Shown in pieces: positions 1-24,000 of a DNA stretch of 64,000 bases. This DNA is from Zootoca vivipara (lineage: Eukaryota). The position numbers were made by a program. Each line of letters opens with the position of its first letter. The stretch's first letter is position 1. The stretch spans positions 3,472,001-3,536,000 of the forward strand of contig NC_083288.1 in the NCBI RefSeq assembly GCF_963506605.1, in the 5' to 3' direction.

Positions 1-3000
1 GTTGTGAACATCCCCATCTCTGAGTGGCACATGACTCCAGGGGTGCCTGCGCTTAGCCTGGGTTCCTTTTCCTTGGAATTACGGGGCATCCCTCCAGGGA
101 AGTGTGTAGAGGTTTCCCTTACTAGCTTACTTTTCACAAACCAAAAGACCCTTTTCTCTTTTTAACAAAAATATTTTTTATTCATTTTTTACAAAATGAT
201 TTTTTTACATTTCAGCATAAACCATAAGACCCGTATTTACCCTTTAAAAAAATATATATTTTTATTAAAAGAATTACAAGTATGAAGACAAAAATAATAT
301 ACAAAATGCTATCTACCGGTAGTATAGTGTTATCTACCCTTGAATGCTCCCTATTTTGCCTATCCTATTCTATACATCAATTTTAACCTCTCTAACTAAT
401 AAAAGTCCCGCTTGCTGTTTAGAGTGCTGAAAGAGTCAATAGAAAGTGTCCAATCCTCAAATTCACTATGTTGCAGATGTCGTCTTCCCGGCGGCTCCTT
501 TCCCGGCTGATGACATTCTTCCAGGGGTCTTCTTTTCTCCGGACGTCTTCTCCCAGGTTCCAGCAGATAGGCCGCCGTTCATGCAAGAAAGAGAGAAAAG
601 AGATTCTGTTAGAAAAGGTACTAAATCTCAGGAATGTTAGACCCTCTTGTTGCCCACCCCAAACAAAGAAATGGAAGAAAGTTGCTGCTGGGGGATTGCC
701 ACTCAAGAGGATGGCAGAGAGCAAGGAACCGGACCCTGGGCATACACCAGCGACCGGGGGAGCTCCATAAAGCCACAACAACAACAAAAGGTTTCTTACC
801 GCTATGTATGGAGGGTCGTGAGGGCAGCACCACTCCTCTTGGTCGATCCTGATGGCCTTGATGTTCCTGGCGCTGGTCCAGAGTGGATCCCACGGAGAGC
901 AGAAGATGGTATCTCTGCAGCACAACGCTGATGTTCACGTTGCCTTGGCCTGGCGCAACTTCGGACGTTCTGTCACGAGGAGAAAGGGTTTTTGGGGGGA
1001 AACGTCACCTCCAAGGAGCCCACCAGACGTCCAAATACCCAACCAGATGCCTCACTCACCTGGCATGCAGCTCAGGAAGTCCTGCGGGTAAGGTTCCCTG
1101 TGAACACAGCGGAGCAGCCTCCTCACAAGGCGCTGGACCCTGCCTTTCTGCCGATGTTTACAGGCCCGCTGCATGATGTTCAGGCAGCTCCTCCCTGTCC
1201 GCCTGAGCCCTTCTTCCTCGTGCTGCTGCATCTCTTCCAGCCCTGAGTGGCAAGGGAGAAAGGTTGAGCCAGGAATCAGCTTTTCACAAGGCAAAAACTT
1301 GCAAAGCACCCCCACCAGAGCTCCTCCCAGGACCAGGGTGTGGGCTAGGGGGATATTTGTGTGTGAGAGAGAGCAGTGGAGTCACATTCCAATCCTCTTG
1401 GCATGTTCATCTTGTGGCACCTCTGTCTGCACACACACCTGGGAAGCCGCCTTCCCCTAAAGCCCTTTCTCAGAAGAAGCACCCCTCCCTGCCCTCCGTA
1501 AGTCTCACTTACATGTACCATAGGATGCCATGTCTTGATTTTGGATGAAACTGGCATCCCGGAAAGCCAGATGACCTAGAGAGACAGGGCAAGAAAAGGG
1601 ACGTCATCTCGGTGCAAAGCAAGCGGAGACAGAGGCAGCTCGGCAGGAGGACAGGTATGCGTCTAGAGGCCTCCACCCTCGCGGAGCACTCAGAGCAAGG
1701 TGGCCTGGGGACATGCCCATCCTCACTGCCATCGTTACCCAGACGTTACCAGGGAAGGACGTTGCTTGACTTACCCAGAAGCAGAGCTGCCACCCTGGAG
1801 ACTGCTGGCAGCCTGTTGGCAGGCGGCTTCGTACATGTCAAGGCAGCACTCCGAAGGATGTTCTTGCTGAAGGTCTTGCTCTGTCGGCAAAGGCAAAGGA
1901 GAAGTGGCATCAGAGAGGCTTGAGAGCACGGCAGGAGAGCCTGTCACCCCCAAAGACATCCCTGGGCAAAGCTGCCAACAAAGCAGAGTGACCTTACCAG
2001 ATGCTTGGCAGCCTGGTGGAGAGCAAAGTGGAGGCTAAATTTCTCGGGATGCGCCCACCACTTGACTTGTGGGGCTAGATGGGAAAGAGCCCTCCTTGCG
2101 GCCTGCAACACAAGAAGAGAAGAGGGTTACAAATTGCAGGACATAGTCTTGGAAGCTCCTGAGAACAATGACTCCCTCCTACTGCAGAAGTCCACCTCCT
2201 TGGCCCTCACCTTGGCCACCTCGTCCTCGTCTTCGAGGTGAATGAGGACGGCGACCAGTTCATTAACGGCTGCTTCTTCTGTTGTTGTTATGGGAAGCCC
2301 TTGGTCTCTCACCCAGCCCCGAAGCAGCCCCAGATGTTGGATGGCTGATGCCCGGGCAGAGGCTTCCTCCTGTAGGCAGAAAAGATCAGAGGTTGTGTTT
2401 CTCATCAGATCCGTTTCCTTTCTCCTGTCCACCGAGGTGTTTTGAGGCTGCTGAGCCCCCTATCCTCCTCCTGAGGGAGACTGGGGGCAGGGGTGACTCT
2501 CCCCCTGTGTTTTCCAGGCAGGCTTCCAAGAGAAGGTGCTCCAGAGGAACACCCTCCTGAAGCCAGAAGATCTCCGCTGCATGCCAGTCTAAACACCAGC
2601 CTTCCTCTTCCAAAGCATTCCTATCCACCCTGTGTGATGTCATGTGTTCCCTAACACTCACATGGGCAGCCAGACCGCAGTAGGTTGCCACCAGCATCTT
2701 CAGGTCTTCCTCTCCCAGCTCCCTGGACAGGTAGGCTTGGTCTACCAGCTCTATCAACTCTGGGAAGACATCAGCTTCTGCATCAGGGAGGAAATCCAGC
2801 AGCGACAGCCGCAGAAGCAAAGGGTCCTACACAAAAGAGAGAATATTTTCAAAGGTCTGAAAGGCCCCACGCTTTTTCTTTGAGAACAGGCCCTTCAGCA
2901 TTCGGTCAGCAAAAGAGTGCTGGGCCATGATTAGAATCCAGATCTGTGCCCCCCTCCCTCCCTGTGAGCATCACTTGCCATGTCAGAGTCCAGAAGCAGG

Positions 3001-21000: not shown

Positions 21001-24000
21001 GGCCCTTGGGACCTCAGCTGGAGACACCCAGGACTTGGCAGAGCCTCCCTCCGTCTCTGTGGCGTAGACTCTCCAAGTGTCCCTCTTTCCCAGGGACTGT
21101 CCAGGATTTACAGAAGCCGCCTCGGTTCCTGATTTCCTCATTTTCTTACCTCCACTGATGAGAGTCATGGTTTGGATGGGGGTCTTTTATCCATTTTCGC
21201 AGTCATACAATCCATCAATCAGTAGCTGAACTGGAATCCACACAGTCACAAAAACTAATGCTGCCATATTTCCAGCTTCCACCCAGAACACACCACAAAA
21301 TTCATTGTTCACAGTTGCATTTGTTCAGACTCATCAAAGAAAAAATCACAGCTCAGGATTTTTAATCAGGCATCCCTCAGACTACCATACCCACCCTACA
21401 AAATGAAAACAAACAAACAGATCAACAAGGTGAATCATCTACCACAAGACAGACCTAGAAAACAAAAGAACATCAGTTGTTACCACTTATCATTTGCAAC
21501 TGAACACACTGGATCATATCAATGAACTTCAGACTATAGTCAAACCTCAGTTTGCGACCGCTTCGGTTTCCGACCACTGTTTACATCCGGGTTCCGCGGC
21601 CCTTGGATGCGCAGAAGCGATCTGCGCAGCGTGTGTGTGTGCAGAAGTGCTCTATCGCTTCGTGCACGCACAGAAGCGTGCCTTTGGTGAGCGACCGCTT
21701 TGGTGAGCGACCGCCTCCATGGAACGGATTGCGGTCGCAAACCGAGGTACCACTGTACATTCTATTCTGCGGTCCTTGAGGTATGACAATACTCTCTTGT
21801 TTTTAGTGCAACAGACTAACACAGCTATGCCTTTGTCCATTAATAAAAGTTGGACATTTAAAAAGAGGTGTCAAATAAGTGTCTGATACCAAAATAGTAA
21901 CAAGGTCAGCAGATGACTGCTCCTCTTACCTTCCAAATACACGTCACATACGCCCCTCAGCAGCAGCTGCAGCTAAAAATAGAGAATGGCAAGCAAGAGA
22001 GAACCTCTGTTAGAACAGATCCAGTATAACAGAAGGAATCAAAAGGCAGCAATGCACTCTCTACGGTTCCTGAGTGCTGGGGCTTTGGTATCCAATACAG
22101 AGCTGATAAAAGGAAATATTGGCAGTGTTGCACACAACCTTTTCCCTCTTCTTTTTAAGGCAAGTTACTTGCAGGAACAAGGTGAAGTTCTTCACGATTT
22201 GGTGGCAAACTGGCCACTGAAAGAACTTAACATTGGAAAACTGTTGGGGAAGACGATAGACCACCAGGAAGACATCAGTAGCAGAGCCTGCTCGGTGTGC
22301 TTGACCAGTTGCCTAACTGGCCTTAGAGACTATGTGCTGAATTGTTCATCTCCATATGCAAAGAGACTCAAACTGGTGGACTTAACAGGCCTCAAGGATG
22401 TTGAAGTTCAGCTCTGCAATTGTAGGAAAACAATGGGACGCTGGGCCAGGACAGAGCTGCTGTCGAAGATCTGCTATGATCTGCTTGTTGAAATGCAAAG
22501 GCTGCAGTTCAGTCCAGATGTGTTTGAGATTTCAGTAGACGTTCTTACTGATGTCTTTGTCACTGAACGAAGTTATGAGCTGGTTGTCCAGGCCTTGCTT
22601 ATGAGGTGCCATTGTCCACTAAAAATTCTCTGTGCATCCTTCCGAGTGGACAACCTAGCCCTGCGGAAGCTCTTCTACATCATAAAGCTTACAGATCCCT
22701 CTTTGCTGCTCAAATTTGAAATAGTCCACAATGTTCGGTTGGAAATGGAACATCTGCACATGCTCTTTAATAACGTCCACTTTCCTCAGCTGACGTCGCT
22801 CACACTCCCAGCTAGGACGTTCAATGTACGAAGGTTCACCCCAGAGGATGAGGCCATTCTTGTAGGAATTGGAGAAAAGTTAAGCCAGATGACTCAACTG
22901 ACTGAGCTGAGCCTAGCATTTTCCACACTCACGGGAAGGATACGTAAACTACTCAGGTAATGTGCTCCAGATCTTGCTGGTGACACAATTGAGACAATAT
23001 TTACGACTAATATGTAACGTTTTAAAAAGGGAAAGCATAGGAAGCTTTCTTTTATTGTCATGCTCATGCTTATCTAATTTAGCATTGTCTACTCTGTGCA
23101 GCATGGTGGGATGCGGGTGACGCTGTGGGTTAAACCACGGAGCCTAGGGATTGCCGATCAGAAGCTCAGCGGTTCGAATCCCCTCAACGGGTGAGCTCCC
23201 ATTGCTTGGTCCCTGCTCCTGCAAACCTAGCAGTTTGAAAGCACGTCAAAGTGCAAGTAGATAAATAGGTACTGCTCTGGCGGGAAGGTAAACAGCGTTA
23301 CCATGCGCTGCTCTGGTTTACCACATGACCTGGAAGCTGTACACTGGCTCCCTCGGCCAATAAAGCAAGATGAGCACTGCAACCCCAGAGTCGGACACGA
23401 CTGGACCTAATGGTCAGGGGTCCCTTTACCTTTACCTTACTCTGTAAGTCCCAAAGGAAGGACTTTTTACAGTTCCATCTAACTGGAGATTCAGGAATTG
23501 AACCTGAGATCATCTTGAGTCCCCCATGACCTATTTTTTTGCTGCAAAATAAATATTTGCAAGTGTGGGTGCCAGTGCCATTCTTGGTAGTTTTAGGCTC
23601 TAACATTATTTTTAAATTTGTTTAAAAGATTTTGAACTGACCTTTCAGGGCACACTGCTCTCACCTTTTCTGGAAACAAATTGCTCTGAGAAGAGGCATA
23701 CCCTGGCCACACTTTTCACTCCCCACCCCCCACCCCAAATCAGAGAACCACTTGAAGAATAATACAAGCAAAAAAACTCCCCACCTTGCTCTTTGTACAG
23801 CGGTTGCCTTATACGCCTCATGGGAGTGGCAGGAATCACAACAGCGCACACACTTTGGTGGGATGAAACAGGCCACAAGTTCGTTGTCTTTCGAGACAGA
23901 GGGATGCCAACAGCAACAATAAGCAGGGGTGGCAAGGGAAGTGGAACAAGGACTAGACCCTATTCCACTCAACCTTTGCTGTTGGAGAGTTATTTCAATT

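What the first reader, a model, noticed from the sequence alone, without database searches (positions are those of the whole stretch)
1..21260. Tandem array of a divergent MROH-like HEAT-repeat gene abutting LRRC14B
Seen: two copies 12,814 bp apart, each with at least 16 small in-frame exons that the ORF track misses. The duplicated sequence starts before position 1, so more units may lie to the left. Known: in human the neighbour of LRRC14B at 5p15.33 is PLEKHG4B, and MROH-like genes are expanded in sauropsids. Inference: a lineage-specific, actively turning-over gene array of unknown function at the edge of a conserved block.
Basis: partly seen in the sequence, partly recalled or inferred. 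Interest (0 to 1): 0.65.

Follow-up and report, generated by a model that had tools for sequence, protein, structure and literature searches.

The report
Two tandem copies of Maestro-type HEAT gene
The region holds two nearly identical, intact, many-exon copies of a Maestro-family (MROH-like) HEAT-repeat gene lying head to tail beside an LRRC14B-like gene, which is a real but fairly ordinary recent gene duplication.

Summary
Window 1-9090 is repeated at 12815-21260, offset 12,814 bp.

On the minus strand each copy carries the same chain of 17 small exons (63-183 nt, introns 81-423 nt). Phases are consistent, splice sites are conserved (one GC donor), and a TGA stop precedes AATAAA signals. Copy 1 has one more candidate upstream exon.

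The chain is far beyond chance: 8 linked exons under strict thresholds, against at most 1 in every control.

Tests made after the exons were chosen support a working gene:
- 8 of 8 indels are intronic.
- Exon divergence is 0.95% against 2.7% in introns.
- There are 9 synonymous and 4 non-synonymous differences.

One exon matches Pfam HEAT_Maestro above its cut-off in both copies. A later exon gives a weak, colinear match.

The neighbours are a PRAME/LRRC14B-like gene, a coiled-coil ORF and SDHA.

The 3' halves are 99.9% identical and the 5' halves about 98%. Copy 2 carries a microhomology-flanked inverted insertion. Both point to gene conversion and ongoing rearrangement.

Not tested: copies beyond two, lineage specificity, expression, and the joined protein, which was deliberately never assembled.

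Verdict: a new member of a known kind, of modest interest.

The parts
1..9090 (-). Duplicated unit, copy 1. It is truncated by the window start; the gene runs right to left.
   Evidence: Self-BLASTN; sharp right boundary.
12815..21260 (-). Duplicated unit, copy 2, as far as it can be matched to copy 1.
9091..12814 (.). Sequence between the matched parts. It lies downstream of gene copy 2 and upstream of gene copy 1, and is unique in the window except for a CR1-like fragment at 12038-12657.
   Evidence: no exon match.
6368..6435 (-). E0, candidate upstream exon (68 nt). It is present only in copy 1, because its acceptor lies in the copy-1-specific segment. It may be 5'UTR or spurious.
6075..6243 (-). 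Ea, copy 1. It holds the first ATG (6164-6162), with A at -3 and G at +4.
5597..5738 (-). Eb, copy 1: the exon that matches HEAT_Maestro.
   Evidence: Pfam PF21047, E=6.4e-8, 33.2 bits (cut-off 27.4), profile positions 23-72 of 229.
5397..5515 (-). Ec, copy 1.
5116..5265 (-). Ed, copy 1.
   Evidence: Folded alone it gives helix-turn-helix, pLDDT 72.2.
4550..4692 (-). Ee, copy 1.
   Evidence: Weak HEAT_Maestro match, E=0.096, 13 bits, profile positions 175-204.
4291..4405 (-). Ef, copy 1.
4043..4179 (-). Eg, copy 1.
3738..3857 (-). Eh, copy 1. The acceptor was read by eye; it scored below 3 bits on my matrix.
3490..3604 (-). Ei, copy 1.
2979..3113 (-). Ej, copy 1, with a GC donor.
   Evidence: AG..GC in both copies.
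2662..2826 (-). Ek, copy 1.
   Evidence: Folded alone it gives three helices, pLDDT 73.8.
2211..2369 (-). El, copy 1.
1998..2102 (-). Em, copy 1.
1775..1880 (-). En, copy 1.
1513..1575 (-). Eo, copy 1.
1060..1242 (-). Ep, copy 1.
935..969 (-). Eq, copy 1: last coding exon, with the TGA stop at 937-935.
177..266 (-). Two AATAAA signals of copy 1 on the minus strand. Their plus-strand matches start at 177 and 261.
18871..19039 (-). Ea, copy 2.
   Evidence: same length, AG..GT, 2 synonymous differences.
18385..18526 (-). Eb, copy 2.
   Evidence: HEAT_Maestro E=9.9e-7, 29.3 bits.
18188..18306 (-). Ec, copy 2.
17907..18056 (-). Ed, copy 2.
17381..17523 (-). Ee, copy 2.
17105..17219 (-). Ef, copy 2.
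16857..16993 (-). Eg, copy 2.
16552..16671 (-). Eh, copy 2.
16304..16418 (-). Ei, copy 2.
15793..15927 (-). Ej, copy 2, with a GC donor.
15476..15640 (-). Ek, copy 2.
15025..15183 (-). El, copy 2.
14812..14916 (-). Em, copy 2.
14589..14694 (-). En, copy 2.
14327..14389 (-). Eo, copy 2.
13874..14056 (-). Ep, copy 2.
13749..13783 (-). Eq, copy 2, with the stop codon.
12991..13080 (-). Two AATAAA signals of copy 2 on the minus strand.
6419..7240 (.). Copy-1-specific segment of about 820 bp, upstream of Ea. It has no counterpart in copy 2.
19211..19345 (.). Copy-2-specific 135 bp that is an exact inverted copy of copy-1 intron sequence 4410-4544. Exact microhomology at the junctions is 2 bp and 6 bp.
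7372..7372 (-). Strong donor conserved in both copies (last exon base 7372 in copy 1, 19466 in copy 2). It may end a non-coding first exon. This is inference only.
21983..26419 (+). Neighbour gene with two long coding ORFs (21983-22957 and 25769-26419). It is PRAME-family, LRRC14B-like, and head to head with copy 2.
   Evidence: Atlas feature search: score 0.97 to PRAME clusters, LRRC14B cluster at rank 10 with 0.92. LRR_6 E=4.4e-6.

Best explanation
Two direct tandem paralogues of a compact gene (about 5.5 kb of coding exons and introns) lie on the minus strand.

Shown:
- Each copy has 17 coding exons.
- The protein belongs to the Maestro (MROH) branch of HEAT-repeat proteins.
- Both reading frames and all splice sites are intact.
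- The differences between the copies show purifying selection.

Inferred about history:
- The duplication is older than the 99.9% identity of the 3' halves suggests.
- A recent gene conversion or unequal exchange homogenised about 3.6 kb, from the 3'UTR to exon Ej.
- The 5' half (about 2% diverged) and the upstream flank (more substitutions, many indels) keep the older divergence.
- Copy 2 then suffered a deletion with a templated inverted insertion in what is most likely the first intron or 5'UTR. This left the coding sequence untouched.

Inferred about function:
- The product is an all-helical HEAT solenoid that acts as a protein-binding scaffold, not an enzyme.
- By analogy with other lineage-specific MROH expansions and with the reproductive-tissue expression of Maestro-family genes, it is probably expressed mainly in the germ line or testis.
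- It probably uses a promoter without a CpG island.
For: Duplication.

Exon chain:
- Consistent phases, found from ORFs plus splice-site scores and by reading the sequence.
- All 17 shared exons keep the same length, AG..GT (one AG..GC) and an open frame in both copies.
- The chain exceeds every control.

Selection tests. The exons were chosen before the copies were compared:
- 8 of 8 indel events between 935 and 6415 fall in introns. Exons are about 41% of those positions, so the chance is about 0.015 by my arithmetic from the counts.
- In 3490-6415, exons show 12 differences in 1,258 positions and introns 44 in 1,619 (Fisher p=5.8e-4).
- There are 9 synonymous differences on 509 sites and 4 non-synonymous on 1,630 sites, a ratio of about 0.14 (p=6.4e-4).

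Family:
- HEAT_Maestro PF21047 scores above its curated cut-off in both copies.
- Exon Ee matches profile positions 175-204 weakly (E=0.096). Its distance from the Eb match is about 106 residues against 103 profile positions, so the two matches are colinear.
- The two exons folded alone are helical.

Conversion: 2 differences in 2,555 aligned positions (935-3489) against 56 in 2,877 (3490-6415).

Rearrangement: exact inverted 135 bp with junction microhomology.

Promoter: no 500-bp bin with CpG observed/expected above 0.61 anywhere in the two units.

Expression analogy:
- A tree sparrow preprint reports MROH among families expanded by segmental duplication, with testis-biased new copies (passages).
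- The MRO name stands for male-specific transcription in developing reproductive organs (abstract start in the listing).
Against: - Only one 47-residue exon reaches significance for the family. In copy 1, the 15 further exons long enough to scan gave nothing at E<=0.05. The joined protein was not searched, so most of the protein is unassigned.
- The 5' end is unresolved. No first exon or promoter was found, and the candidate exon E0 is disrupted in copy 2.
- There is no expression evidence of any kind.
- The selection counts are small (13 exon differences). They come from simple counting, without split codons and without multiple-hit correction.
- Gene conversion can itself distort such counts.
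- The near identity of the 3' halves is also what a mis-assembly of two haplotypes would give.
- The single-exon folds have only moderate confidence (pLDDT 72-74). Short helical models are not specific to HEAT repeats.
Confidence: 0.75

Rival explanations
1. Assembly artefact. The two 'copies' are the two haplotypes of one locus, or a collapsed and re-expanded repeat, wrongly laid in tandem.
For: There are only 5 substitutions in the first 3,650 bp. Overall identity is 97.8%, which is within the range of heterozygosity plus structural variants.
Against: - The copies are joined by 3.7 kb of other sequence without any N.
- Identity falls stepwise to about 98%, and further upstream there are many indels.
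- The right boundary is a clean break into different flanks.
- Copy 2 holds a templated inverted insertion with microhomology, a mutational signature rather than a typical assembler product.
- Exon and intron differences follow a selection pattern.
- None of these points excludes the artefact.
Confidence: 0.1
2. Real duplication, but one copy (most likely copy 2) or both are no longer functional. They would be untranscribed relics too young to have collected disabling mutations.
For: - Copy 2 has lost about 820 bp upstream of Ea, including the acceptor of candidate exon E0.
- The tree sparrow preprint says most new MROH copies became pseudogenes (abstract passage).
- There is no CpG island and no expression data.
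Against: - There are 0 frameshifts, 0 stops and 0 lost splice sites in 17 of 17 shared exons in both copies.
- Synonymous differences outnumber non-synonymous ones.
- Exons are less diverged than introns in the non-converted half.
- If the ATG in Ea is the start, the rearrangement lies outside the coding sequence.
Confidence: 0.12
3. A HEAT/ARM-repeat gene that is not a Maestro-family member. On this reading the Pfam match is a cross-hit between related HEAT models.
For: - The generic HEAT model PF02985 also matches the same exon (E=0.0014 and 0.00074).
- In copy 1, the other 16 exons long enough to scan gave no significant family match.
- The Atlas gave no usable hit for exon Ek.
- The PDB sequence search of Eb gave only non-significant hits to assorted helical-repeat proteins (best E=0.12).
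Against: - HEAT_Maestro scores 33.2 and 29.3 bits, above its curated cut-off. Generic HEAT stays below its own cut-off (19.1 and 20.0 bits against 23.5).
- A second, colinear HEAT_Maestro match lies at the expected distance.
Confidence: 0.1

Closest known systems
Maestro heat-like repeat (MROH) family, Pfam HEAT_Maestro PF21047 (vertebrate MRO, MROH1, 2A, 2B, 5-9)
   Same: Both copies carry a HEAT_Maestro match above the curated cut-off, plus a colinear weak match. The gene has many small exons, and the two exons tested fold as helices.
   Different: - The product is short (about 693 codons), and most of it has no detectable family match exon by exon.
- It cannot be assigned to a named member.
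- It does not sit where the human members listed in PMC6585022 sit: MROH9 1q24.3, MROH7 1p32.3, MROH6 and MROH5 8q24.3, MROH8 20q11.22 (table passage). Instead it sits beside the LRRC14B-CCDC127-SDHA block.
- The only member whose function my searches turned up, MROH1, is called a mediator of lysosomal membrane fission (title of PMC5450189 and abstract start of PMC13587356 in the listing). Nothing here shows that function.
MROH expansion by segmental duplication in the tree sparrow (bioRxiv 10.1101/2023.02.19.529176)
   Same: It is a sauropsid genome, with recent high-identity duplication of MROH genes. The preprint reports 46 MROH copies in duplicated blocks and testis-biased expression of active new copies (passages).
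   Different: - That case is a bird, with dispersed copies enriched on microchromosomes and co-located with LTR elements, and most copies are pseudogenes.
- Here there are two intact head-to-tail copies with a 12.8-kb period and no LTR element seen.
Concerted evolution of young tandem duplicates by gene conversion or unequal crossing-over (general mechanism, from established knowledge)
   Same: There is a sharp step from about 0.1% to about 2% divergence inside one gene, with more diverged flanks.
   Different: No tract end points were mapped with an outgroup, so the direction and age of the event are unknown.

Membership tests
MROH / Maestro HEAT family | Match to Pfam HEAT_Maestro (PF21047) at or above the gathering score | tested here: met
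   Copy 1 ORF around Eb: 33.2 bits, E=6.4e-8. Copy 2 exon Eb alone: 29.3 bits, E=9.9e-7. The cut-off is 27.4.
MROH / Maestro HEAT family | Match along the whole 229-position HEAT_Maestro domain | tested here: inconclusive
   Only profile positions 23-72 are significant. Positions 175-204 match weakly (E=0.096) at the right distance. Exons Ec and Ed, which lie between, gave nothing. The joined product was not searched.
MROH / Maestro HEAT family | All-helical HEAT solenoid over the rest of the protein | tested here: inconclusive
   2 of 2 single exons folded are helical (Ek three helices, pLDDT 73.8; Ed helix-turn-helix, pLDDT 72.2). The other 15 were not folded, and no full-length model was made.
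MROH / Maestro HEAT family | Orthology or tree placement with a named member (MRO, MROH1-9) | not testable with these tools
Segmental (tandem) duplication | Two direct copies longer than 1 kb at more than 90% identity on one contiguous sequence | tested here: met
   6.4 kb at 97.8%, plus 0.9 kb at 97.9% and 1.0 kb at 91.5%, in the same orientation with no N between.
Segmental (tandem) duplication | Copy number confirmed by reads (not two haplotypes) | not testable with these tools
   No reads were available.
Functional protein-coding gene (both copies) | Open frame, conserved splice sites, and signs of purifying selection | tested here: met
   17 of 17 shared exons are intact in both copies. 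Differences: 9 synonymous, 4 non-synonymous. Exons are less diverged than introns. 8 of 8 indels are intronic.
Functional protein-coding gene (both copies) | Transcription and splicing observed | not testable with these tools
   No RNA data were available.
LRRC14B (neighbour) | PRAME_N and PRAME_C domains and LRRC14B orthology | tested here: inconclusive
   Atlas feature search: best hits are PRAME-family clusters (0.97), with an LRRC14B cluster at rank 10 (0.92). The Pfam copy gave only LRR matches on the second ORF. There was no PDB sequence match. The position beside SDHA fits the human order.

The most novel reading that the evidence does not exclude
The pair is the visible edge of a larger, squamate-specific array of a short, fast-evolving Maestro-type gene. 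On this reading the array has taken the place that PLEKHG4B holds in human, next to the conserved LRRC14B-CCDC127-SDHA block, which is subtelomeric in human. It is kept homogeneous by repeated gene conversion while under selection. That pattern would fit a germ-line gene family under dosage selection or sexual conflict.
Probability: 0.12. Interest if true: 0.5.

Novelty: new member of a known kind. Interest (0 to 1): 0.3.

Why it matters
The finding gives a clean, small example of a young tandem gene pair in a reptile-like genome. Purifying selection, a gene-conversion tract and a replication-type rearrangement can all be read directly from one 21-kb stretch.

It also supplies an exon model for a gene that ORF-based tracks miss entirely.

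MROH proteins are poorly understood. A compact member of about 690 residues, present in more than one copy, would be a convenient entry point for expression and binding studies.

It does not open a new kind of biology. Automatic annotation pipelines with protein evidence would probably call it an MROH-like gene.

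Tried and rejected
I then sent stop-free ORFs and single exons.
- Pfam on exons or exon-bearing ORFs: in copy 1, 15 of the 17 exons long enough to scan gave nothing at E<=0.05. The scattered hits at E 0.055-0.18 (DnaG_cat_HB, zf-U1, E1_UFD, DUF4344, holin, TIG_plexin, DUF4618) I take as chance.
- Plus strand: 0 of the 10 longest ORFs under the gene matched any Pfam family at E<=0.1.
- Rfam on 1-22000: 0 matches at gathering score.
- Atlas on exon Ek: no usable hit.
- PDB sequence search of Eb: best E=0.12, not significant. PDB search of the LRRC14B-like ORF: 0 hits.
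- A third, degenerate copy: exon-by-exon TBLASTN of 17 exon peptides against the window found only the two copies at E<0.03.
- Reading the 218-codon open frame 4042-4695 as one long exon is rejected. Copy 2 has 4-bp and 13-bp insertions inside it, and the spliced phases fit. So it is three exons with two in-frame introns.
- Acceptor 3623 for Ei and donor 3743 for Eh are rejected on phase.
- Literature search was badly specified: it did not require the term MROH, and 0 of its 20 listed papers held it.
- Fold search, complex prediction, search_dna_similar and the bacterial genome collection were not used. Short single-exon models would give meaningless fold matches, and the collections hold no animal genomes.

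Full report
**The observation**

A self-comparison of the window shows three colinear direct matches:
- 1-6418 with 12815-19215 (97.8% over 6,450 columns, offset 12,814);
- 7241-8106 with 19335-20205 (97.9%);
- 8098-9090 with 20279-21260 (91.5%).

Homology runs to window position 1, so the unit begins left of the window. It stops cleanly at 9090/21260, after which the two flanks are unrelated. No N lies inside or between the copies. The window's N runs lie elsewhere and were left as they are.

**The gene**

By eye, coding-looking open frames lay mainly on the minus strand. I combined stop-free segments with recalled splice-site consensus weights and read the sequence where the weights failed. 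This gave one chain of exons on the minus strand of copy 1:

| Exon | Coordinates | Note |
|---|---|---|
| E0 | 6435-6368 | copy-1-only candidate |
| Ea | 6243-6075 | holds the first ATG |
| Eb | 5738-5597 | HEAT_Maestro match |
| Ec | 5515-5397 | |
| Ed | 5265-5116 | |
| Ee | 4692-4550 | weak HEAT_Maestro match |
| Ef | 4405-4291 | |
| Eg | 4179-4043 | |
| Eh | 3857-3738 | acceptor read by eye |
| Ei | 3604-3490 | |
| Ej | 3113-2979 | GC donor |
| Ek | 2826-2662 | |
| El | 2369-2211 | |
| Em | 2102-1998 | |
| En | 1880-1775 | |
| Eo | 1575-1513 | |
| Ep | 1242-1060 | |
| Eq | 969-935 | TGA at 937-935 |

- Every junction is phase-compatible, and introns are 81-423 nt.
- AATAAA signals follow about 680-760 nt downstream of the stop in both copies.
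- The first ATG of Ea (6164-6162) has A at -3 and G at +4.
- From that ATG the exon lengths add up to 693 codons. With E0 included they add up to 742.

**Left out on purpose**

All searches were exon by exon, and split codons were left out of the counts.

**Is the chain more than chance?**

I ran one dynamic program with strict thresholds (acceptor and donor at least 3 bits, exon 60-200 nt, intron 80-600 nt) on the real strand and on controls.
- The real minus strand of 901-6500 gave 8 linked exons (1,109 nt). Under these thresholds the chain breaks at the weak Eh acceptor and the GC donor.
- The plus strand gave 1 exon. The two reversed sequences gave 1 and 0.
- The 20 shuffles gave at most 1.
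- Four other N-free tiles of the window gave at most 1 on either strand. Two tiles that hold N were skipped.

**Independent tests from the two copies**

The exons were fixed before the copies were compared.
- All 17 shared exons (Ea-Eq) have the same length, the same AG..GT (Ej AG..GC) and an open frame in copy 2.
- Of the 20 indel events in the pairwise alignment, 8 lie between 935 and 6415, and all 8 are intronic. Exons make up about 41% of those positions, so the chance is about 0.015 by my arithmetic from the counts.
- In 3490-6415, exons differ at 12 of 1,258 positions and introns at 44 of 1,619 (p=5.8e-4).
- The 13 exon differences are 9 synonymous (509 sites) and 4 non-synonymous (1,630 sites). 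The ratio is about 0.14 (p=6.4e-4).
- The counts are small and come from simple counting.

**Family**

- The open frame around Eb matches Pfam HEAT_Maestro (PF21047) with E=6.4e-8 and 33.2 bits, against a cut-off of 27.4, at profile positions 23-72 of 229.
- Exon Eb of copy 2 alone gives 29.3 bits.
- The generic HEAT model matches the same place but stays below its own cut-off.
- Exon Ee gives a weak HEAT_Maestro match to profile positions 175-204 (E=0.096).
- The distance between the two matches is about 106 residues against 103 profile positions, so they are colinear.
- No other exon gave a credible family match.
- The Atlas had no usable hit for Ek. A PDB sequence search of Eb was not significant.
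- Two exons folded alone are helical at moderate confidence: Ek has three helices at pLDDT 73.8, and Ed is helix-turn-helix at pLDDT 72.2.

'Divergent MROH-like HEAT-repeat gene' is therefore a fair name. Which named member it is closest to could not be tested.

**Other strand and RNA**

None of the 10 longest plus-strand frames under the gene matched Pfam. Rfam found nothing in 1-22000.

**History of the pair**

Divergence is not uniform.
- 935-3489 has 2 differences in 2,555 aligned positions.
- 3490-6415 has 56 differences in 2,877.
- The step lies between 2691 and 3650.
- Further upstream, substitutions rise to 2-3.4% per 500-bp bin, with many indels.

I read this as an older duplication whose 3' part was recently homogenised by gene conversion or unequal exchange. 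This is an inference.

Upstream of Ea the copies differ in structure.
- Copy 1 has about 820 bp (6419-7240) that copy 2 lacks.
- In its place copy 2 has 135 bp (19211-19345) that are an exact inverted copy of copy-1 intron sequence 4410-4544.
- Copy 2's own version of that intron is only about 85% alike and carries two insertions.
- The junctions share 2 bp and 6 bp of exact microhomology. This fits a replication-type template switch or microhomology-mediated repair.
- The event removes the acceptor of candidate exon E0. It leaves everything from the Ea ATG onward intact.

The 5' end is unresolved.
- A strong donor conserved in both copies (7372 and 19466) may end a non-coding first exon, but this is a guess.
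- No 500-bp bin within either unit has a CpG ratio above 0.61. The bin 21501-22000, in front of the neighbour gene, reaches 0.90.

**Surroundings**

- Right of copy 2, head to head, lie two long plus-strand frames (21983-22957 and 25769-26419).
  - The first is placed by the Atlas among PRAME-family clusters (0.97), with an LRRC14B cluster at rank 10 (0.92).
  - The second has LRR matches.
- A 227-residue coiled-coil-looking frame lies at 43591-44271 on the minus strand. It has no Pfam match, and I call it CCDC127-like by position only.
- SDHA exons lie at 55612-55785 and 56803-57030. The second was found with a recalled short motif and matches FAD_binding_2 at E=8.4e-12. The first is read by eye from its translation and has no Pfam match.
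- A passage of PMC5506863 lists the human subtelomeric 5p genes as PLEKHG4B, LRRC14B, CCDC127, SDHA and onward.

**Literature**

- 'maestro heat-like repeat' with 'lizard' found 1 paper.
- 'MROH' with 'lizard' found 4 papers.
  - Two of the four have unrelated titles and were not opened.
  - One is the gene-family survey PMC6585022.
  - The only lizard-specific item is an outlier SNP in MROH7 of an anole, with function given as unknown (passages of PMC5574798).
- In the passages I read, nothing describes an MROH pair beside LRRC14B.
- For sauropsids I found one bird preprint (10.1101/2023.02.19.529176, passages). It lists MROH among eight families expanded by segmental duplication, with 46 copies in duplicated blocks, most new copies pseudogenes, and active ones testis-biased.
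- PMC6585022 (passages) places human MROH5-9 on chromosomes 1, 8 and 20.
- For function I saw only search listings:
  - MROH1 as a lysosomal regulator and mediator of lysosomal membrane fission (PMC5450189 title and PMC13587356 abstract start);
  - MRO as male-specific transcription in developing reproductive organs (PMC5391009 abstract start).

**What stayed unchecked**

The open genome collection holds only bacteria and archaea.
- Therefore orthologues, copy number in other species, the organism of origin and lineage specificity were not tested.
- No reads or RNA data exist here, so the haplotype alternative and expression are open.
- Nothing in the window was taken for human, and no contig was fetched.

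**Verdict**

This is a real tandem pair of intact Maestro-type HEAT-repeat genes. It shows clear signs of selection, partial homogenisation and a recent 5' rearrangement, and it lies beside a conserved LRRC14B-CCDC127-SDHA block. It is a new member of a known kind, of modest interest.

Noticed in passing
window 35552-36043 (+): A 164-codon open frame matches Pfam Telethonin (PF09470) at E=3.6e-19, profile positions 34-102 of 163. It looks like a telethonin/TCAP-like exon lying between the LRRC14B-like gene and the CCDC127-like frame.
   Followed up: no
window 19211-19345 and 4410-4544: An exact 135-bp inverted copy of a copy-1 intron is inserted upstream of exon Ea in copy 2. It is identical to copy 1's version, not to copy 2's own. 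Exact junction microhomology is 2 bp and 6 bp.
   Followed up: yes
window 23108-23439, 36860-37219, 37717-37886, 52358-52711: An interspersed repeat of about 350 bp occurs in both orientations at 80-91% identity. It is probably a SINE-like element.
   Followed up: no
window 58330-61260 (+): An uninterrupted 977-codon frame carries a reverse-transcriptase domain (RVT_1, E=1.6e-40). It is a LINE-type element lying after the SDHA exon at 56803-57030, in a very AT-rich stretch (GC 0.31-0.35).
   Followed up: partly
window 12038-12657: The sequence between the two gene copies holds open frames on both strands that resemble, from recall, the 3' part of a CR1-type LINE. 12452-12655 is 93.6% identical to 47964-48167. 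Pfam gave no match.
   Followed up: partly
window 4042-4695 (-): Three exons (Ee, Ef, Eg) and their two introns of 144 and 111 nt form one uninterrupted 218-codon frame in copy 1. In copy 2, insertions of 4 and 13 bp in the first intron break it. This can mislead ORF-based tracks.
   Followed up: yes
window 21501-22000: This is the only CpG-rich 500-bp bin in the first 22.5 kb (observed/expected 0.90). It lies just upstream of the LRRC14B-like frame and about 250 bp beyond the end of copy 2, so it could be a shared divergent promoter region.
   Followed up: no
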